From the IMG/VR virus record IMGVR_UViG_3300029234_000076: a stretch of 6,914 bases of DNA; one strand, written 5' to 3'. Below are positions 1 to 6,914 of the stretch, in pieces (position 1 is the first letter of the stretch; each line of letters begins with the position of its first letter). Position numbers and translations under genes: made by a program. Under the pieces are notes generated by a model. That model did no database searches, was not told the origin of the DNA, and saw only the letters and a program-made list of their open reading frames with translations. The DNA comes from a virus. Its lineage: Duplodnaviria; Heunggongvirae; Uroviricota; Caudoviricetes.

Positions 1-292
1 TCCTGTTTACCTCTTTCTCAGGAAGTTTAGTCTCCAGGATTCCCGGGGCGGTTCATTTACCACTGGCTTTCCACATATCAGTGAGGCAGATCATGCCATC
101 TTCACCGATACGAATTGGTTAATTGAAGAGGGTTAATGATTTCATAGCGTGTACCTACTCTTTGAAATGAACCTTTGCCGCACAGGAAACCAGCCCACCG
201 AGGCTCGCCAGCACTAACTGGTATCCTCAAAGGCCCATTCCAAAGGGGCAGGTTCGGTGTAAAAAACATGCGTTGCGGTACGCATTTATTGC

Positions 293-314
293 AAAAAGCC
301 CCGCATCGCGAGGC
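293..314 (-). terminator. Putative intrinsic terminator downstream of Rz/Rz1 (end of lysis cassette)
   Basis: On the minus strand, a GC-rich hairpin (plus 298-304 gccccgc, loop atc, 308-314 gcgaggc; one G-U wobble) is immediately followed by UUUUU (plus 293-297 aaaaa). It lies about 35-55 nt downstream of the Rz stop at 347-349. Confidence 0.35.
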
Positions 315-346
315 TCATTAAATGGACTTTGTGATTTGCAAAAAAA

Positions 347-805
347 TTATTTCAGGCATTGCGTCCTGATGTATTCCTGCAGGTAGTTAACCTGCGCGGT
401 TATCTTGTCGATTCCACTTCGGAGACGGTAATAATTGAGTTCAGCATCTGCTGTAAGTCCTGGGCTTTCTCCATCGCCCATGCCGCTGGCTCCGGTCGTT
501 GACTTTGCACAGGTGGCGGCGACTTGCAGGCGCTTACGCCCAGCAGAAACATCAGCACGGAGACTTTCGATAGTCGCGTTAGCATCAGCAAGCTCCTTTG
601 TGTATCTTGCATCGAGTTCTGCTACATCACGTTGACGCTTCCGCATGTCAGCGATGGTGGCGTTCGCCTTCTCCAGTTCTCTGACATTTTTGTCGCGCTG
701 GGCTTTGTAGGTAATGGCGTTATCACGGTAATGATTAACAGCCCATGACAGGCAGACGATGATGCAGATAACCAGAGCGGAGATAATCGCGGTTACTCTG
801 CTCAT
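347..805 (-). CDS. Rz: Rz i-spanin (inner-membrane spanin subunit), lambda Rz-like
   Basis: The translation [40 protein letters not shown]... matches the lambda Rz N-terminus as I recall it, with an N-terminal TM helix and a C-terminal region ending QCLK. The ATG at 803-805 overlaps the endolysin TGA stop (802-804) as ATGA; the listed ORF start at 817 is four codons upstream and less likely. Confidence 0.85.
400..585 (-). CDS. Rz1: Rz1 o-spanin (outer-membrane lipoprotein), embedded in Rz in the +1 frame
   Basis: The ORF lies wholly inside Rz in another frame. An internal Met at 583-585 is preceded by AAGGAG with a 7-nt spacer. The product [33 protein letters not shown]... has a lipoprotein signal peptide with a lipobox (VSAC) and a proline-rich mature part, typical of Rz1. 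Confidence 0.75.
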
Positions 806-1299
806 TGTTTCCCCCACAAACAGACTTCACGCTCAATCTCACGGCGAGTCATCAGTCCTTTCCATTGATTACCGCCAGCGTATGTCCAGCGCCGTAGCTG
901 ATCACATGCGCCTTTGATATCGCCCTGGTTTATTTTGCGAAGAAGCGTCGATGTTCTGAAATTGCCAGCACCCACGTTGTAAACGAATGAGTAAAGAGCG
1001 CCGCGCGTTGTTTCCGGTATATCGACTTCGATGTACGGGTTAATTTGTCTGGCGACAGTGGCAAGGTCTTTATTCAAGAGTGCTTTGCATTCTGCTTTGG
1101 TATACGTTTTACCGAGCATGATGTCTTTTCCTGTATGCCCGTGACATACAGTCCATACACCAACAATATCTTTATATGGTATGTAGCTGACACCTTCCAG
1201 ACCATCGTCACCACTCGGACCAGTGATGAGCACAGACGCTATGGCAACAGCCCCACCACCAATAGCAGCTGCTACAGCCTTGCGTAATGATGGCGACAT
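802..1299 (-). CDS. R: SAR endolysin (phage 21 R-type lysozyme, T4-lysozyme-like muramidase)
   Basis: 165 aa. The N-terminus [20 protein letters not shown] is a Gly/Ala-rich signal-anchor-release segment, followed by [25 protein letters not shown] (lysozyme catalytic region). It is near-identical to P21 R / DLP12 RrrD as recalled. Its start shares one nt with the S stop. Confidence 0.9.
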
Positions 1300-1514
1300 T
1301 ATTCACCTCTCGCAGCCTTACGCTTATCTTCTTTAATCTTGAAATAAAGGTTTGTCAGGTACGTCAGCAGGCCAAATACCAGGCTACCCAGCACTCCAAT
1401 TGCCGCCCACTGTGAGGGCGTGACTTTATCTAGCAGCTGTAAAAACCAGTACCCGGCACTACCTGCTGAGGTGCCATAGGCGACACCCGTTGTTAACTTA
1501 TCCATGGATTTCAT
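1299..1514 (-). CDS. S: Pinholin (phage 21 S21-type class II holin) with dual-start motif
   Basis: 71 aa, MKSMDK... (Met1 and Met4 dual start, antiholin/holin), with two TM segments (TMD1 Gly/Ala-rich SAR-like, TMD2 [18 protein letters not shown]) and a charged C-terminus [13 protein letters not shown]. Strong SD GAGGTGG upstream of the ATG at 1512-1514. Confidence 0.9.
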
Positions 1515-1625
1515 AACCCCACCTCGCAGACAAAGCGGGTGTAAATTGAGGGAATACTACGAAACGTAACAGACTCGAAGTCAGTGAATAACTCAGGTAT
1601 TGGGTTATCAGCTAATATCGAGACT

Positions 1626-1659
1626 CAAAAAATGGAAAAACCCGCTCGACGGCGGGTTT
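1626..1659 (-). terminator. Putative intrinsic terminator on the late-gene strand about 110 nt upstream of S (tR'-like candidate)
   Basis: On the minus strand: stem aaacccgc / gcgggttt (plus 1652-1659 and 1638-1645) with a 6-nt loop, followed by UUCCAUUUUUU. The position relative to S parallels lambda tR' upstream of S. Confidence 0.35.
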
Positions 1660-1699
1660 AAGCTGTGTGACGAAGTAACCACTCTTAACAGCATAACCA

Positions 1700-2087
1700 A
1701 TTTTTTACGTACGTAAACCACTAAATGATATTTGCGAGAATGCTACCGAGTATTGAAAACACCACTACAAATACATAAGCAAATCTCAACAAATAACCAA
1801 CAAATAATTTCCAGTGTTATTTTTAGCCGATTTAAATTGAACCTTCAAATTATAGAGCACTTATAAATAACAACCGTTAGTATAAATTGGCTAATAGATT
1901 TATTTTTATTCAGCCAAGAGCTATGAATAGGATTCGATAGAAAAAAGTTCAGATAAAAATAGAGATCTACTTCACAAATCAAACGAGAAACCAAAACTTA
2001 CATCTTGAAATAATCACATTGATTAGATGAATATTTATCGCGCAGTGACATCATTTTTTAATAATAGTTCAAAAAAAAGGGCTCACG
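1700..2087 (+). promoter_or_regulatory. AT-rich upstream regulatory region and promoter of the porin gene (exact -35/-10 not resolved)
   Basis: About 390 bp, very AT-rich, with no ORF of meaningful size, immediately upstream of the porin ATG. SD AAGGG lies 7 nt before the ATG at 2088. It contains an OmpR-box-like sequence at 1996-2021 (see findings). Confidence 0.4.
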
Positions 2088-3170
2088 ATGAAAAAATTAA
2101 CAGTGGCAATTTCTGCTGTAGCTGCATCAGTACTGATGGCGATGTCTGCTCAGGCAGCTGAAATTTATAATAAAGACAGTAACAAGCTGGATCTGTACGG
2201 GAAAGTTAATGCTAAGCACTACTTCTCCTCTAATGATGCAGATGATGGTGATACTACTTATGCCCGTCTTGGCTTCAAAGGTGAAACCCAAATCAACGAT
2301 CAACTGACTGGTTTCGGTCAGTGGGAATATGAATTCAAAGGCAACCGCGCTGAATCTCAAGGTTCTTCCAAAGACAAAACCCGTCTTGCATTTGCAGGCC
2401 TGAAATTTGGTGATTACGGCTCAATCGATTACGGCCGTAACTACGGTGTAGCATACGACATCGGTGCGTGGACTGACGTCCTGCCAGAATTCGGTGGTGA
2501 TACCTGGACCCAAACAGATGTGTTCATGACTGGTCGCACTACTGGTGTTGCAACTTATCGTAACAACGACTTCTTTGGTCTGGTCGATGGCCTGAACTTT
2601 GCTGCTCAGTATCAGGGTAAAAATGACCGCACTGACGTAACTGAAGCCAATGGTGATGGTTTCGGTTTCTCCACTACTTATGAGTATGAAGGATTCGGCG
2701 TGGGTGCAACCTATGCTAAATCAGATCGCACTGACGGTCAGGTCGCCTATGGTAAGAGCAAATTCAATGCCTCCGGCAAAAATGCGGAAGTATGGGCTGC
2801 AGGCCTGAAATATGATGCGAACAATATCTATCTGGCTACCACATATTCTGAAACTCAGAATATGACCGTTTTTGGTAATAACCATATTGCAAACAAAGCA
2901 CAAAACTTTGAAGCAGTAGCACAATATCAGTTTGACTTCGGTCTGCGCCCATCTGTTGCTTACCTTCAGTCAAAAGGTAAAGACCTTGGTGTTCATGGTG
3001 ACCGAGACTTAGTCAAGTATGTCGATGTCGGTGCTACTTACTACTTTAATAAAAACATGTCCACTTTTGTTGATTACAAAATCAACTTAATTGACGATAG
3101 TAAGTTTACCAAAACAGCTGGTATTGATACTGATGACATCGTTGCTGTAGGTCTGGTTTACCAGTTCTAA
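2088..3170 (+). CDS. nmpC: General bacterial porin, OmpC/OmpF/PhoE family; prophage-borne NmpC/Lc/OmpD-type
   Basis: 360 aa. Signal peptide [23 protein letters not shown]|AEIYNK, conserved porin motifs ([60 protein letters not shown]-terminal VGLVYQF). Oriented opposite to the flanking phage genes and visibly lower in GC than its neighbours. Confidence 0.9.
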
Positions 3171-3332
3171 TCTGATTACGAAAAAGATATGTTGCGGGAG
3201 GCGTTGCCTCCCCAACATATAAGTGGCTCCCTCAAGCCACTTCCTTTAGAAGCACAACCTTGCTTCTAACTATATAAACCTTCTGTTATATATTACCCTT
3301 TATTTTTGGGGGCGTCTCAACGCCCCATTTTT
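3171..3332 (+). ncRNA. ipeX: Structured 3' UTR of the porin gene, IpeX-like sRNA element
   Basis: Four consecutive stem-loops directly after the porin stop: 3187-3220 (15-bp stem with one bulged C), 3221-3242 (8-bp stem), 3246-3269 (9-bp stem), and 3308-3326 followed by a U-tract. This matches the published description of ipeX as lying in the untranslated region between the nmpC/lc stop codon and its rho-independent terminator. Exact 5' end unknown. Confidence 0.5.
3308..3332 (+). terminator. Rho-independent terminator of the porin / IpeX-like transcript
   Basis: Stem ggggcg (3309-3314) / cgcccc (3321-3326), loop tctcaa, followed by auuuuu (3327-3332). The U-tract is on the plus strand only. 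Confidence 0.7.
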
Positions 3333-3359
3333 AATAATTTTTAGTAAACAATTGGCATA

Positions 3360-3743
3360 TTAATTAGAGTTATTAACAACGATATCCATCTCTAACCAGA
3401 TATCTAATGCCATTAACATCCCTTCAATTATGCCCTCAGCTTTTTGTAACCTTTTCCCGATATAACCATCAGAGCAGCAATGCTTACCTGCCAGTGACAT
3501 GAATGTCATACCGACTACATAATAATCTACTAATAAATCGTGCAAATCGCTGTTGTTCTTTTTCAGACGGGCCATGCACCCGCAAATGATCATCGCGTCA
3601 TCGTCACAACATTGCGGGCGAGATTTTACTTTTGAAGGAATTAATCCCTTAAAACCGGCGGCAATGGACGACCAGGTCACATCTTCATGATTATTAGCCG
3701 CCCACGCTCCCCAACGCTCAAGAACCATCTGAATATCACGCAT
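3360..3743 (-). CDS. Q: Late-gene antiterminator Q (phage 21/82-type, QuuD-like)
   Basis: 127 aa from the ATG at 3741-3743: [24 protein letters not shown]...[16 protein letters not shown]...HCCSDGY, with Cys clusters consistent with the zinc-binding Q family. It sits in the classical position upstream of the lysis genes. The ORF-track start at 3758 is a TTG five codons upstream; the ATG is preferred. Confidence 0.85.
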
Positions 3744-3760
3744 CAACTTTCTCCACAAAA

Positions 3761-4756
3761 TCAGGCCAGCACACCAATCGTCAGCGCACGATCGATAAAA
3801 CGAAATATCAGCTCCAGCTGGGAGCCATACTTCTCTTCGAATGCCACATTATCCGCATGCAGCTCGTCGTGATGCTTTCTGCACAAAGGCAACACAAAGA
3901 GGTCATGCGCTTTTGTCCCCATTCCACCCTGACCGTGGCCTATCAGGTGGTGGGGATCATCAGCAGGTTTTCCACAACATGCGCACGGCTGCGTCTTAAC
4001 CCATCGCGTGTACTTTTCATTAACCCAGCGGCGACGTTTTGGGCGTAACATAAAAGAGTCCGGCGACTCCGGATCCACTTTCAGCGCCAGCACCTTTTTC
4101 GCTTTATCCTGGATGATGCTGGTGGCAGGAACCGAAGGCACCAGGTCACTTTCCCGGGTGACAGACGGCACAACAGGCTTCGGTAATCTCAGTGCCTTAC
4201 GGGCTGCACTTTCCGGTAAGGCATCCGCCAGATCATTACGAATCAGCCACCAGCACAGTTCCGGCATTGTCACAACGTGACTGTCATCAAAACCGAGATC
4301 CCGACGCACAACAGACAACACCCAGCGGGCACAGTTATCCGTTGCCATTGATTCCAGCCGTTCCGTGAACTGATCGCGCAGTTGGTTATCGCAGTGCCAG
4401 CACAGACGGATTGCGCCCGGCGCGTGTCGCATTGTGGTCATGTTCTCGCTGTGCCAGTCGGAATGAGGCCACTGGCAGCCTTTTTCACGAAGTAACCAGC
4501 TTTCAAGACATTCCACGCCACCAGCACGACGGATCACTGCCTCATTGCGGAACACGGCCCGAACGGCAGGATCATCCGCCAGCGGTTGTGATGCAGCCGG
4601 AACGGCACCACTGGCAAAAGATGAATAACGTTCCGGCTCAGGCTCCAGCAGGACACGCCCCTGCATAAACAGGGGCATCAGCTCTGAACCTGGCCTGAAC
4701 AATACGATCCCCATACGCGGGGCAATTTCAGGGGTCAGTAGTGCTCTCACGGTCAC
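3761..4756 (-). CDS. DUF968-like prophage protein (Qin YdfU-type) with C-terminal HNH-like Cys/His motif
   Basis: 331 aa. The C-terminal region [43 protein letters not shown] has a C-x2-C...HH...CxxHH arrangement reminiscent of HNH/zinc-ribbon nucleases. The start is GTG at 4754-4756 (or GTG at 4748-4750), one nt after the upstream gene's stop, suggesting translational coupling. Family assignment is from memory. Confidence 0.7.
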
Positions 4757-4757
4757 C

Positions 4758-5567
4758 TCAATGAACGGTATCGAGCAGCTTTAACAGCTCAGGGAATCGG
4801 GATTCGAAGAAATGCGGCTGCGTCTCGCGCGGATTTGCGGGACTGGTGATGTTCTTGCCGAACATGCAGCCTTTCGCTGTCAGCGACCAGAATTTTTTGA
4901 TGTTGTTAATCGCGGTACGGCTGTATCGTTCGCGTTGTTCAACGATCCCCAGCTTCGCCATCTGGTGATATGCCTGATTAGCCGTCAGGCGGATACCATA
5001 CTGCTTCAGCAGTGCACTCAGCGACAGCGTGGGGCGGCTTGAGCCATCAGGCGCGTCAGCAGGTGCATCAATGGCATAGCGCGGTGCCAGATTCGGTAAG
5101 CCAACAGCCTCCTGGAGTTTCTGACAGGCCCCAAGCACAGATGAGTTAGACAGATTTAACTCCCGGCGCATAAAGTCCAGCAGAATCACGCCAGCCTGCA
5201 TCTTGTCAGCAGCCTGTCCGGATAACTTTTCCGGCGCGCTGGTTACCATATCGAAAGTACGGATCACCTTCAGATGGAATGACGGGCTGATCCACATTGC
5301 ATAGGCATACACCAGTTCCTTACAGACATACGTTCCCCGTTCATTTCCCCCATGAATCACGCTCACCGGGTCAACACCCAAATTCTGGGTGTTGGTTAAT
5401 TCATGAACAAGCTCAACAGTTTGTTGGCTGGAAAGAAACTTTCCTGGCTCCTTGGTTCTGGCATTTGCACCAGATGCTACTGCTGCGCGATGCAGATCGT
5501 TCAGGCTGTAACGCCCATAAGCATCACGACGAACTTCAATACCATCAATGACCATCAGATTATTCAT
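4758..5567 (-). CDS. KilA-N domain protein with C-terminal ANT/KilA-C-like region (putative antirepressor)
   Basis: 269 aa. N-terminal MVIDGIEVRRDAYGRYSLNDLHRAAVASG...ERGTYVCKELVYAYAMWISPSFHLKVIRTFD fits KilA-N. The C-terminal part (LLKQYGIRLTANQAYHQMAKLGIV...KKFWSLTAKG) resembles the ANT/KilA-C DNA-binding module. Strong SD AGAGGAG upstream of the ATG at 5565-5567. Confidence 0.8.
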   Translation of the reverse strand: MNNLMVIDGIEVRRDAYGRYSLNDLHRAAVASGANARTKEPGKFLSSQQTVELVHELTNTQNLGVDPVSVIHGGNERGTYVCKELVYAYAMWISPSFHLKVIRTFDMVTSAPEKLSGQAADKMQAGVILLDFMRRELNLSNSSVLGACQKLQEAVGLPNLAPRYAIDAPADAPDGSSRPTLSLSALLKQYGIRLTANQAYHQMAKLGIVEQRERYSRTAINNIKKFWSLTAKGCMFGKNITSPANPRETQPHFFESRFPELLKLLDTVH

Positions 5568-5586
5568 ACTTCGTTTCTCCTCTTAA

Positions 5587-5976
5587 TCAGGCAGCTGCAC
5601 CCGCCGTTTTCTCGTACTTACTGATAGTGATCTCGACCTTCCCTTCCGGGATAACCGGTCCCCACTCCACCAGCATTCTTTTCACCTGACTGTCGTCTTC
5701 CCACACCCCCGCGTGGGTCAGGGCGTCAAACAGCGCCTTGTTATAGTTGTCCAGATCGCGGATCCTGTTATCCGGAGGAAACAACACGATCTCCACTGAA
5801 GCAGGTGCCGACGTTGGTTTCGGCAGACGACGTAACTGCTCAACTATTGCTGCGCACGCCGCGCTCTGGAATTTTCGCCCCGCCGCGCTTATCAGGCTCT
5901 TACCAGCAAACGCCCCTTTGTTGGGGTGTCGCCAGTACGTGTTCACGCTGGGCGGAAAAGGCAGGATCAGCTTCAT
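5587..5976 (-). CDS. rusA: RusA-family Holliday junction resolvase
   Basis: 129 aa. The motif pattern LPFPPSVNTYWRH...RDLDNYNKALFDALTHAGVWEDDSQV parallels E. coli RusA (LPWPPSNNRYYRH...[26 protein letters not shown]). The start ATG overlaps the upstream gene's TGA (ATGA at 5973-5976). Confidence 0.85.
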   Translation of the reverse strand: MKLILPFPPSVNTYWRHPNKGAFAGKSLISAAGRKFQSAACAAIVEQLRRLPKPTSAPASVEIVLFPPDNRIRDLDNYNKALFDALTHAGVWEDDSQVKRMLVEWGPVIPEGKVEITISKYEKTAGAAA

Positions 5977-6299
5977 ACTTTCAGGCCCCTCTCATGTAAC
6001 CAGTGGGCTGCACGCAGCCTTGCGTTTTCCTCACCGGCAAGCAGTGAGCGGATAATCCCGACCGCCTCGCTGTCGTCGTCCTTCACCGCGGTATGAAGCG
6101 TGATGCCCCGGGCCACGCCACGCTTTATCGTGATGACGCCTTTTTTCTCCAGTGCGCGAAGATGCTCCACCGCTGCATTCACTGAACGGTATCCCAGCAT
6201 GGTTGCCACCTCCTGATTGGTTGGCGGGAAGCCACGTTCTTTCTGATAAGAAATCAGCATATCCAGCACCTGCTGCTGGCATTGAGTTAACGTCGTCAT
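5973..6299 (-). CDS. LexA N-terminal DNA-binding-domain-only protein (no S24 peptidase domain)
   Basis: 108 aa. Residues 1-68 align by eye with the E. coli LexA N-terminus at roughly half of positions, including the recognition-helix region (RSVNAAVEHLRAL versus LexA RSPNAAEEHLKAL) and the GxxRGI wing. The remaining ~40 aa show no peptidase S24 motifs. ATGA overlaps at both ends (6296-6299 and 5973-5976). Confidence 0.7.
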   Translation of the reverse strand: MTTLTQCQQQVLDMLISYQKERGFPPTNQEVATMLGYRSVNAAVEHLRALEKKGVITIKRGVARGITLHTAVKDDDSEAVGIIRSLLAGEENARLRAAHWLHERGLKV

Positions 6300-6899
6300 G
6301 CCGCCATCTCCCTGACCAGTTTTTCTGCCTGCTGGCGAACCTGCGCCAGAAAGGCCTCACCACATGCCTCAAGTTCATCGCGCCCGATGTAGCTGATTGC
6401 CGGTCCCTTCCAGGTCTTGTCGAAAACAGCAATAGCACCAGCGAAGAAAGCGCCTGTCGGCACCTGCTTCTCATCCTTCGGGATAAACCAGGCAGGCAGT
6501 TCAAAACCAATACGCCCGCGAATAAAAGCAATATGATCTGCATCTTCCGGCCACCACACTTGCTGGTGGCAGCTTTGATCAGGAAAACATAGCGCCCGCC
6601 TTTATCACGCATGGCACTGGCATGCTTCATGATGTAACGCATGCCGGTGATGTATTGCCCCTCATGCTGACTGGCGCGGCTGTATGGGGGATTACCAAAG
6701 GCAGCACCTTTAAGCTCCGCAAGGCGTTCTGACCAGTCATGCGCCAGCGCGTTGTCTTCCGCCGTGTAATACGCAGCACATTTGGCGTTATCACCGTCAG
6801 TGAACAGATCCAGAACAAACGGGCCAAACAGGGTGTTAATTGAACCGCCCCGGGTTTCCTGGAGAGTGTTTTATCTGTGAACTCAGGCTGCCAGATCAT
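6296..6899 (-). pseudogene. Phage N6-adenine DNA methyltransferase (Dam-like, NPPY motif), apparently split over three reading frames
   Basis: My manual translation gives MIWQPEFTDKTL (frame A from ATG 6897-6899), then ...SINTLFGPFVLDLFTDGDNAKCAAYYTAEDNALAHDWSE...FGNPPYSR...GGRYVFLIKAATS (frame B, about 6870 to 6562), then WWPEDADHIAFIRGRIGFELPAW...VREMAA (frame C, 6559-6296). The FGPF...NPPYS...WW...FIRGR order is that of phage Dam-like methyltransferases as I recall them. Frame junctions fall in short G/C runs (about 6855-6868 and 6560-6570), so this is either a genuine pseudogene or homopolymer sequencing error. Confidence 0.5.
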
Positions 6900-6914
6900 C
6901 GTTTCCGATGGAAG

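What the first reader, a model, noticed from the sequence alone, without database searches (positions are those of the whole stretch)
3761..4756. DUF968-like protein with HNH-like Cys/His cluster directly upstream of Q
The C-terminal ~60 residues carry CACC...DDPHH...GQGG...[12 protein letters not shown], which resembles the zinc-ribbon plus catalytic-His layout of HNH nucleases; the ~230-residue N-terminal part has no domain I can name. Proteins of this family are, to my knowledge, functionally uncharacterised despite being common next to Q in lambdoid prophages. A nuclease-like protein expressed with Q could act in late-phase DNA processing or in exclusion of other phages.
Basis: partly seen in the sequence, partly recalled or inferred. 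Interest (0 to 1): 0.5.

Follow-up and report, generated by a model that had tools for sequence, protein, structure and literature searches.

The report
Known phage HNH nuclease-like protein (DUF968)
The ORF is an intact copy of a very common prophage gene (DUF968/YdfU family) whose C-terminal end is predicted to be a zinc-braced HNH nuclease, as already published, so it is ordinary except that nobody has tested what it does.

Summary
A 331-codon ORF (3761-4756, minus strand; likely start GTG 4750, 329 aa) lies between a KilA-N gene and the antiterminator Q gene. It matches Pfam DUF968 (E 2.4e-80) and carries C258xxC261...H269H270...H284D285...C292xxH295H296xxxH300.

The "late-phase" and "exclusion" ideas get no support. 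The gene sits in the early nin-type operon and has no PADLOC hit.

My additions:
- The N-terminal part holds a second conserved zinc site (C94, H/C102, C119, C/H122) on a beta-beta-alpha unit with weak HNH resemblance.
- The P1 PdcB clade has lost the catalytic histidines, and a Vibrio clade has lost the zinc ligands.
- The gene lies directly upstream of Q whichever Q family is present.
- No empty site was found in 5426 E. coli genomes.

The function is inferred, not shown: most likely a recombination or replication nickase.

The parts
3761..4756 (-). DUF968-family ORF. The longest reading is 331 aa from GTG 4756. The likely true start is GTG 4750 (329 aa). The stop codon is 3761-3763.
   Evidence: ORF list. 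Pfam DUF968 E 2.4e-80. PHROG 96 matched end to end, E 5.6e-176. Homologues 98-100% identical are 329 aa.
4756..4759 (-). GAGG Shine-Dalgarno for the GTG at 4750 (5-nt spacer). It overlaps the stop codon of the upstream KilA-N gene (4758-4760), which suggests translational coupling.
   Evidence: Read from the sequence. The start used by annotated homologues is shown.
4187..4756 (-). N-terminal module, residues 1-190: a small beta sheet, helices 58-88, a zinc-binding beta-beta-alpha unit, a long helix 132-153 and helices 164-188. No Pfam model covers residues 1-160.
   Evidence: AlphaFold2 models with pLDDT 84-87. Pfam scans. Family-wide invariant residues F69, C94, C119, W120, D123, N141 and W170.
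4379..4477 (-). Second, N-terminal zinc site on a beta-beta-alpha unit, residues 94-126: C94, H102, C119 and C122, with invariant W120 and D123 and near-invariant H121. There is no conserved histidine on the first strand, so it is probably not catalytic.
4022..4186 (-). Lower-confidence linker, residues 191-245, ending in a conserved basic stretch (VDPESP...MLRPKRRRW). D228, P239 and K240 are invariant.
   Evidence: pLDDT 56-71 in this stretch. Conservation.
3827..4021 (-). HNH / His-Me finger core, residues 246-310. Zinc brace: C258, C261, C292, H295. Putative active site: H269 (and H270) on strand 1, the H284-D285 loop, and H296 and H300 on the helix.
3764..3826 (-). C-terminal helix, residues 311-331, which belongs to the DUF968 model.
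   Evidence: Helix 313-327 in the model. The Pfam match runs to residue 328.
3360..3758 (-). Late-gene antiterminator Q (phage 82 type), immediately downstream. The likely ATG is at 3743.
   Evidence: Pfam Phage_antitermQ E 5.2e-53. Sequence read.
4758..5567 (-). KilA-N domain protein (Roi/antirepressor-like), immediately upstream in the same gene string.
   Evidence: Pfam KilA-N E 2.4e-22. It is the upstream neighbour in 90 of 156 related loci.
5587..5976 (-). RusA Holliday-junction resolvase, two genes upstream: a recombination gene in the same string.
   Evidence: Pfam RusA E 6.1e-15. A RusA gene lies within 3 kb in 105 of 157 related loci.

Best explanation
The ORF encodes a two-module phage protein of the DUF968 (YdfU/PdcB) family.

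C-terminal module (inferred from sequence, predicted fold and homology). The last ~85 residues form an HNH / His-Me finger nuclease domain. A CCCH zinc site (C258, C261, C292, H295) braces it. A general-base histidine sits on the first strand (H269, with H270 next to it), and metal-binding histidines sit on the helix (H296, H300). This module belongs to the same small branch as P1 Ref, E. coli YbcO and the staphylococcal phage nickase Gp16.

N-terminal module (inferred). The first ~190 residues form a helical domain built around a second conserved zinc site on a beta-beta-alpha unit. It lacks a conserved catalytic histidine, so it most likely serves to recognise DNA or a partner protein.

Expression (shown by gene layout plus the established lambdoid scheme). 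The gene is the last one before Q in a tightly packed string that also holds RusA. By the established lambdoid scheme it is therefore made in the early/delayed-early phase, together with the replication and recombination accessory genes, and not late.

Mechanism (inference only, nothing measured). I think the most likely mechanism is a metal-dependent nickase or endonuclease acting on recombination or replication intermediates such as D-loops, branched DNA or RecA-bound DNA. It would occupy the slot that Rap/NinG holds in lambda and help phage recombination and replication. It is probably dispensable under laboratory conditions.
For: Family: Pfam DUF968 E 2.4e-80, and PHROG 96 'HNH endonuclease' matched over the full length.

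Sequence links to studied proteins:
- HNHc_6 at or above its cut-off.
- PhiNM1 Gp16 is HNHc_6 (E 4.9e-117) and itself passes the DUF968 cut-off at 29.1 bits.
- hhalign of the family profile to Gp16 gives E 5.1e-5. It pairs C261/C292/H295 with Gp16 C148/C181/H184 and H269/H296/H300 with H157/H185/H189. These are the residues mutated in PMC12817073, where Gp16 is shown to be a nickase that binds RecA.
- hhalign to Ref gives E 3.3e-5.
- The published classification puts DUF968/YdfU in His-Me finger group 7, with the same recombination hypothesis (PMC5714182). YbcO has been linked to Ref and HNHc_6 (PMC4999995).

Context:
- Genes from 6559 down to 3360 overlap or are at most 19 nt apart.
- In 126 related loci that have a close downstream ORF, 118 of those ORFs are Q-type antiterminators from four Pfam families.
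- RusA lies within 3 kb in 105 of 157 loci, and none has a lambda NinG, NinB or NinH homologue.
- In staphylococcal phages HNHc_6 sits in ssap-ssb-hnhc_6-rep modules (PMC8093625).

Maintenance: the gene is carried by plaque-forming phages such as mEp460, SfV and Stx2 phages. It is present at >=80% coverage in 2363 of 5426 complete E. coli genomes.
Against: There is no biochemical or genetic test of any DUF968 protein in the literature I could search.

The P1 homologue PdcB is non-essential by CRISPRi (EOP 0.68; PMC10695390). Its clade has lost H269, H270, H296 and H300 while keeping the four zinc cysteines and the N-terminal module. Nuclease chemistry is therefore not a universal property of the family, and the conserved core function might reside elsewhere.

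In Gp16, the H157A change did not relieve toxicity, and H185A and H189A relieved it only partly, so the histidines' roles are unclear even in the studied relative.

The links to Ref and Gp16 are weak at sequence level: hhalign probabilities 72% and 67%, and RecA_dep_nuc 17.9 bits against a cut-off of 26.9. The N-terminal domains also differ. Ref has a disordered basic tail and Gp16 a NinB-like domain, whereas this protein has neither.

The absence of NinG and the co-occurrence with RusA come from loci dominated by two clades (E. coli-like and Yersinia-like), so they are not independent counts. The position next to Q may reflect only module order in mosaic phages.
Confidence: 0.55

Rival explanations
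1. The HNH module is a DNA-binding or scaffold zinc finger rather than a working nuclease. On this view the conserved job of the family lies in the N-terminal module, for example binding a DNA structure or a host or phage protein.
For: The PdcB clade keeps the CCCC zinc site and the whole N-terminal module but has lost all three active-site histidines. More of the family-wide invariant residues lie in the N-terminal half (7) than in the C-terminal half (5). In Gp16, zinc-ligand mutants abolish toxicity while active-site mutants do so only partly. P1 pdcB sits in the phd-doc operon, which is expressed in lysogens; tolerance of that would fit a non-cutting protein (inference).
Against: In the window protein and in most of the family every catalytic position is intact: 189 of 279 full-length sequences have both the zinc site and the histidine triad. 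A Vibrio clade kept the histidines while losing the zinc ligands. That pattern is what selection on catalysis would produce. The C-terminal module is the best conserved part of the protein outside the PdcB clade.
Confidence: 0.2
2. It is an anti-phage exclusion or defence nuclease that the prophage uses against superinfecting phages.
Against: No PADLOC model matches the protein. It has no sensor or partner gene typical of known systems. It sits inside the early lytic gene string with a 1-7 nt gap to the upstream gene. Promoter-like sites in the region are no more frequent than in shuffled sequence, 4 found against 3.1 expected. By the lambdoid scheme it should therefore be silent in a lysogen. 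Its neighbours are recombination and regulatory genes.
Confidence: 0.07
3. It is a selfish homing endonuclease, a free-standing mobile HNH gene that has inserted between the KilA-N gene and Q.
For: Free-standing HNH genes in phages are often homing endonucleases. The gene is flanked by mosaic junctions, since different Q families follow it.
Against: An artificial KilA-N|Q junction lacking the ORF found no true empty site in 5426 complete E. coli genomes. The single joined hit still contains a partly deleted DUF968 gene. Homologues at 25-98% identity keep the same position and the same two-module build across Escherichia, Salmonella, Klebsiella, Yersinia, Edwardsiella, Vibrio and P1. The protein has no NUMOD, AP2 or other typical homing DNA-binding domain.
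Confidence: 0.05
4. It is the HNH partner of terminase needed for cos cleavage and packaging, like HK97 gp74. This is the late-phase DNA processing the first reader suggested.
Against: Packaging HNH genes lie next to the terminase genes and are made late. This gene is upstream of Q, and Q, a porin gene and the lysis cassette separate it from any structural genes. P1 PdcB is non-essential whereas pacA and pacB are essential. The protein is three times larger than gp74-type proteins and has an unrelated N-terminal module.
Confidence: 0.05

Closest known systems
DUF968 family (Pfam PF06147): E. coli Qin prophage YdfU, phage SfV orf45, mEp460 gp049, P1 PdcB
   Same: It is a full member: 269 bits against a cut-off of 27.8. 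It is 98-100% identical to thousands of database proteins with the same length and the same place before Q. The family has already been assigned computationally to the His-Me finger superfamily, group 7 (PMC5714182).
   Different: Nothing distinguishes it from the common E. coli form. K-12 YdfU shares only the C-terminal third at the DNA level. P1 PdcB (26% identity) lacks the catalytic histidines.
Bacteriophage P1 Ref, a RecA-dependent HNH endonuclease (PDB 3PLW; Pfam RecA_dep_nuc PF16786)
   Different: The Pfam score is below threshold, 17.9 against 26.9. Ref's N-terminus is a 76-residue disordered basic tail (PMC4330346), whereas here it is a folded ~190-residue zinc-containing module. Ref's H153 has no counterpart. 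RecA dependence is untested here.
Staphylococcus phage PhiNM1 Gp16 (Pfam HNHc_6 PF16784), an early-expressed nickase that binds RecA
   Same: The Pfam hits are reciprocal: the window protein hits HNHc_6 and Gp16 hits DUF968 above its cut-off. All six mutated zinc and active-site residues are identical, with the same C-x2-H-H-x3-H spacing. Both are early phage genes with RusA nearby.
E. coli DLP12 prophage YbcO (DUF1364; PDB 3G27)
   Different: YbcO is a ~96-residue stand-alone HNH with no N-terminal module. No Pfam DUF1364 hit was obtained for the window protein.
Lambda Rap/NinG, a branch-specific endonuclease (Pfam NinG PF05766)
   Same: It is a zinc-finger HNH-type nuclease encoded in the nin region shortly before Q. 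In the 157 loci examined, DUF968 loci have no NinG, which suggests the two fill the same slot.
   Different: There is no detectable sequence relationship: no Pfam NinG hit. The domain build also differs. Any functional equivalence is inference only.

Membership tests
Pfam DUF968 (PF06147) | Score above the curated gathering threshold over the full model | tested here: met
   269 bits against a cut-off of 27.8. Profile positions 2-171 of 171 are matched by residues 162-328.
His-Me finger / HNH superfamily | Beta-beta-alpha-metal fold | tested here: met
His-Me finger / HNH superfamily | General-base histidine at the end of the first strand, and metal-binding His/Asn on the helix | tested here: met
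   H269/H270 lie on strand 1, and H296 and H300 on the helix. They align with Gp16 H157, H185 and H189 and with Ref H112/H113, H134 and H136. They are conserved in 260 of 279 full-length relatives.
His-Me finger / HNH superfamily | Metal-dependent DNA cleavage | not testable with these tools
   This needs purified protein. No published assay for any DUF968 protein was found.
Zinc-finger-braced HNH (CxxC...CxxC/H) | Four Cys/His ligands flanking the beta hairpin | tested here: met
   C258, C261, C292 and H295 are present. The pattern is CCCH or CCCC in most relatives and is lost in a Vibrio clade. Zinc binding itself was not measured.
Pfam HNHc_6 (PF16784; PhiNM1 Gp16 type) | Score above the gathering threshold | tested here: inconclusive
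   The whole protein scores 26.6 bits, equal to the cut-off. The C-terminal fragment alone scores 29.3 bits. Only profile positions 123-184 of 204 are matched.
Pfam HNHc_6 (PF16784; PhiNM1 Gp16 type) | NinB/Orf-like N-terminal domain | tested here: not met
Ref-type RecA-dependent nuclease (Pfam RecA_dep_nuc PF16786) | Score above the gathering threshold | tested here: not met
   17.9 bits against a cut-off of 26.9, E 0.0036, even though Ref is the best structural match.
Ref-type RecA-dependent nuclease (Pfam RecA_dep_nuc PF16786) | Cleavage only of DNA bound by RecA | not testable with these tools
   This needs a D-loop cleavage assay with RecA.
Lambda Rap/NinG (PF05766) | Sequence membership | tested here: not met
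   There is no NinG hit even at E <= 10. Lambda NinG itself scores 309 bits.
Free-standing homing endonuclease | Presence/absence polymorphism at a precise site in otherwise similar genomes | tested here: not met
   A query made of the KilA-N 3' end joined to the Q 5' end found 0 true empty sites in 5426 complete E. coli genomes.
Known anti-phage defence systems (PADLOC-DB 2.0) | Match to a defence protein model | tested here: not met
   0 families at E <= 0.01.
Terminase-associated packaging HNH (HK97 gp74 type) | Gene adjacent to the terminase genes, in the late operon | tested here: not met
   The gene lies upstream of Q. The downstream genes are Q, a porin, a holin, a lysozyme and Rz.

The most novel reading that the evidence does not exclude
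DUF968 proteins could be a distinct class of two-zinc, tandem beta-beta-alpha recombination nucleases. In this reading, a degenerate N-terminal HNH-like finger reads a DNA structure or a RecA/SSB-coated intermediate and directs the active C-terminal HNH to nick it. The protein would do in many non-lambda lambdoid phages what Rap does in lambda. The family would also contain naturally dead members (P1 PdcB) that keep a nuclease-independent role. If true, about 44% of sequenced E. coli genomes carry an untested Ref/Gp16-like programmable nickase.
Probability: 0.2. Interest if true: 0.5.

Novelty: already known. Interest (0 to 1): 0.27.

Why it matters
The finding itself adds little: the gene, its family and its HNH character are already in Pfam, PHROGs and a 2017 classification paper. 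What remains open is the function of a gene carried by about two in five complete E. coli genomes and by Stx-converting and other active lambdoid phages. Its nearest studied relatives, P1 Ref and PhiNM1 Gp16, are RecA-linked nickases that affect antibiotic lethality, host replication and phage yield. Ref has also been used to make targeted breaks. A direct test of a DUF968 protein would therefore be cheap and could matter for prophage induction biology. The N-terminal zinc module and the naturally histidine-less PdcB clade give ready-made hypotheses and controls for such a test.

Tried and rejected
1. Sequence searches against solved structures found nothing useful. phmmer with the protein gave only chance C2H2 zinc-finger hits at E > 0.1, and a profile of the family alignment gave no hit at all, not even YbcO or Ref. 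The link to solved HNH structures needed fold comparison.

2. The afdb50 Foldseek library was not available.

4. Foldseek of the N-terminal model against BFVD gave no significant match; the best was E 0.059. Pfam scans of ten diverse N-terminal segments at E <= 10 found no family other than the edge of DUF968.

5. A NinB/Orf-like N-terminal domain, as in Gp16 and as suggested for 'DUF968' proteins of Gram-positive phages in PMC4118853, was not found here.

6. NCBIfam has no model for the protein.

7. Rfam and tRNA scans of the window were empty. Promoter-like sites were no more frequent than in shuffled sequence. Terminator-like matches were somewhat more frequent (8 against 3.4 +/- 1.9), but none separates this gene from its neighbours.

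8. The first scan for related loci with the family alignment returned only 98-100% identical copies. Diversity had to come from separate scans with Vibrio and Yersinia members.

9. A combined literature search on YdfU/YbcO/PdcB was swamped by unrelated uses of those strings.

Full report
**What is there**

The window is a piece of a lambdoid prophage. On the minus strand the genes run as follows:
- a damaged Dam methylase gene;
- a LexA-DNA-binding-domain-only protein (5973-6299);
- RusA (5587-5976);
- a KilA-N protein (4758-5567);
- the ORF in question (3761-4756);
- an antiterminator Q of the phage 82 type (3360-3758);
- after a porin gene on the other strand (2088-3170), a P21-type holin, a lysozyme and Rz.

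The same module, Dam / LexA-DBD / RusA / KilA-N / DUF968 / Q, is annotated in phage mEp460. The whole window is about 96-99% identical to many E. coli chromosomes.

**Check of the observation**

The ORF and every quoted motif are present. The ORF matches Pfam DUF968 at E 2.4e-80 and PHROG 96 ("HNH endonuclease") end to end at E 5.6e-176. Q follows directly: the stop codon is 3761-3763, and the probable Q ATG is at 3743 behind a GGAG.

Database homologues are 329 aa and begin at the second GTG, 4750. That start has a GAGG five bases upstream, overlapping the KilA-N stop codon, so it is the likelier start. Residue numbers below use the 331-codon reading.

**Is it an HNH nuclease domain?**

I built a 39-sequence alignment spanning 24-98% identity: E. 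coli, Salmonella, Kosakonia, Yersinia and Vibrio members plus the P1 PdcB group. An AlphaFold2 model made from it has mean pLDDT 83.7. In the model:
- strand 267-270 carries H269 and H270;
- strand 288-291 ends at C292;
- helix 293-301 carries H295, H296 and H300.

At sequence level:
- The C-terminal 116 residues alone score 29.3 bits on HNHc_6 (cut-off 26.6) and 17.9 bits on RecA_dep_nuc (cut-off 26.9).
- The family profile aligns to Ref at E 3.3e-5.
- I retrieved Gp16 of S. aureus phage PhiNM1. It is HNHc_6 at E 4.9e-117 and itself passes the DUF968 cut-off.
- The family profile aligns to Gp16 at E 5.1e-5 with 42% identity. That alignment pairs C261/C292/H295 with Gp16's zinc residues C148/C181/H184, and H269/H296/H300 with its "nuclease centre" H157/H185/H189.

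Gp16 was shown in 2026 to be an early-expressed nickase that binds host RecA (PMC12817073). [quoted passage not shown]

**Is that new?**

No.
- Jablonska et al. 2017 placed DUF968 together with DUF1364 (YdfU, and YbcO with PDB 3G27) in His-Me finger group 7. They noted RusA, Q and antirepressor neighbours and proposed a recombination/repair role (PMC5714182).
- Kaur and Subramanian 2016 linked YbcO to Ref and HNHc_6 (PMC4999995).
- Curtis et al. 2014 discussed HNH fusions under the DUF968 name (PMC4118853).

I found no experimental paper on any DUF968 protein. The one exception is that P1 pdcB scores as non-essential in a CRISPRi screen (EOP 0.68) and in an earlier deletion survey (PMC10695390).

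**The N-terminal part**

No Pfam model covers residues 1-160, but the region is not featureless. Seven of the twelve family-wide invariant residues lie here: F69, C94, C119, W120, D123, N141 and W170. The consensus motif is CQ-x6-[CH]-x-x-N-[LM]-T...R-L-C-W-H-[HC]-D-N.

Positions 102 and 122 behave like swapping zinc ligands. Across 325 homologues they are H/C in 153, C/H in 93, H/H in 76 and something else in only 3. The window protein has H102 and C122.

Against making much of this:
- the two modules share no detectable sequence similarity (hhalign probability 0.3%);
- BFVD gives nothing significant;
- no histidine is conserved on the first strand.

I read the N-terminal part as a second, structural zinc finger of HNH or treble-clef shape inside a helical domain. 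It probably serves recognition rather than catalysis. This is tentative.

**Variation that bears on mechanism**

- The Vibrio clade has lost three of the four C-terminal zinc ligands (C-T...T-E) but keeps H269, H270, H296 and H300.
- The P1 PdcB clade does the opposite. It keeps CCCC but has P-Y, Q and A/E at the four histidine positions.
- Of 279 full-length sequences, 205 have both features, 55 lack the zinc site only, and 19 lack the histidines only.
- Outside the PdcB clade the HNH module is the best conserved part of the protein. Within that clade it is among the least conserved.

Catalysis therefore looks selected in most of the family, including this copy, but it is not universal. P1 pdcB lies at the end of the phd-doc operon, just before the C1-controlled promoter of lpa, the late activator. 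A dead nuclease would be easier to tolerate in an operon that is on in lysogens. That last point is my inference.

**Context**

Genes from 6559 to 3360 overlap or are at most 19 nt apart. Promoter-like sites are no more frequent than in shuffled sequence. Terminator-like matches are somewhat more frequent (8 against 3.4 +/- 1.9), but those near this gene lie inside it or on the other strand, and none separates it from its neighbours. By the standard lambdoid scheme this is the early (nin-type) operon that ends with Q. The protein should therefore appear with the replication and recombination functions, not in the late phase.

In 157 related loci from viral contigs:
- 126 have a close downstream ORF.
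- By clustering of those ORFs and a Pfam scan of one representative per cluster, 118 are antiterminators of four different Pfam families: 72 PF06530, 41 PF03589, 3 DUF1133 and 2 PF06323.
- RusA lies within 3 kb in 105 of the 157.
- None has a lambda NinG, NinB or NinH homologue.

The gene thus holds the last slot before Q regardless of which Q follows, and it accompanies RusA rather than Rap. These counts come mostly from two clades and are not independent.

**Rivals**

- Defence or exclusion: there is no PADLOC hit, no own promoter, and the gene sits in a lytic operon.
- Homing endonuclease: an artificial junction of the KilA-N end and the Q start found no empty site in 5426 complete E. coli genomes. 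The one joined hit still holds a partly deleted copy. The gene keeps its place and build over a wide identity range.
- Packaging HNH: the location is wrong and the P1 homologue is non-essential.
- Non-catalytic scaffold: this stays open because of the PdcB clade and the Gp16 mutant data.

**Abundance**

The gene is present at >=80% coverage in 2363 of 5426 complete E. coli genomes, and at least partly in 3713. It matches 192 phage records, including mEp460, SfV and many Stx2 phages. It has 3121 representative clusters at E <= 0.001 in the 50%-identity library. This copy is intact, although the prophage around it is decaying: the Dam gene is a pseudogene.

**Verdict**

The HNH interpretation is supported but already known. 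The functional suggestions of late processing and exclusion are not supported.

The best-supported mechanism is an early-expressed, zinc-braced HNH nickase or endonuclease that works on recombination or replication intermediates, possibly with RecA. It would be guided by an N-terminal zinc-containing module. Only the family membership and the gene layout are shown directly; the fold is a prediction, and the rest is inferred from relatives.

Noticed in passing
window 6296-6841 (- strand): The Dam-type N6-adenine methylase gene is a pseudogene. Compared with the intact 228-aa gene of a related locus, it changes frame at about 6556-6562, and similarity stops at 6841 (residue 48). That is also where all whole-window DNA matches end. 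The prophage is therefore decaying here, even though the DUF968 ORF is intact.
   Followed up: partly
window 5973-6299 (- strand); protein P0314: A 108-aa protein consists only of a LexA-type DNA-binding domain, with no S24 peptidase part. It overlaps RusA's start by 4 nt and occurs in 66 of 152 related loci. One database protein (P0314, 240 aa) fuses this same kind of domain to the DUF968 HNH module. Its role is unknown; it could be an SOS-box decoy or a regulator.
   Followed up: partly
window about 4400-4405 (codons 118-119); protein P0042: There is a mosaic junction inside the gene. A very common E. coli variant (P0042, on about 1000 contigs) is only 45-50% identical over residues 1-118 but 95-100% identical from residue 119 on. 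The switch falls at the conserved LCWHCDN motif, so the first ~118 residues behave as an exchangeable sub-module.
   Followed up: partly
L001:4001-5044 (P1 pdcB) and proteins P0241-P0260: The P1 PdcB clade keeps the four zinc cysteines and the N-terminal module but has lost all active-site histidines. pdcB is the last gene of the phd-doc operon and sits directly before the promoter of lpa, P1's late-gene activator. This mirrors the position before Q in lambdoid phages.
   Followed up: partly
proteins P0121-P0168 (Vibrio, Photobacterium); L002, L085-L091: A marine clade has lost three of the four C-terminal zinc ligands while keeping the histidine triad. Its neighbours also differ: DUF4406 or DUF559/Vsr-like genes lie upstream, and a small protein with no Pfam hit lies downstream instead of a recognisable Q.
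   Followed up: partly
proteins P0284, P0320, P0359; E. coli strain C7 (hit H59): Several single-copy database proteins join an N-terminal piece of a Dam or MT-A70 methylase, or of a replication protein, to the DUF968 C-terminal module. One genome has a 526-nt remnant of the gene between the KilA-N gene and Q. These look like deletion products of decaying prophages rather than designed fusions.
   Followed up: no
window 2088-3170 (+ strand): An intact OmpC/NmpC-like porin gene (360 aa, Pfam Porin_1 E 1.9e-151) lies between Q and the holin on the opposite strand. A terminator-like hairpin follows it at 3309-3326. This is the arrangement known from DLP12 nmpC and PA-2 lc.
   Followed up: no
window 5559-5586 (- strand): A weak sigma-70-like site (TTAAGA-16-AATAAT, 9 of 12 matches) lies in the 19-nt gap between rusA and the KilA-N gene. 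The number of such sites in the region is no higher than in shuffled sequence, so I give it no weight.
   Followed up: no
window 1-55 and 6842-6914: Both ends of the window fall outside the DNA matches to the best E. coli records, which cover 56-6841. This suggests rearrangement or insertion junctions at both edges.
   Followed up: no
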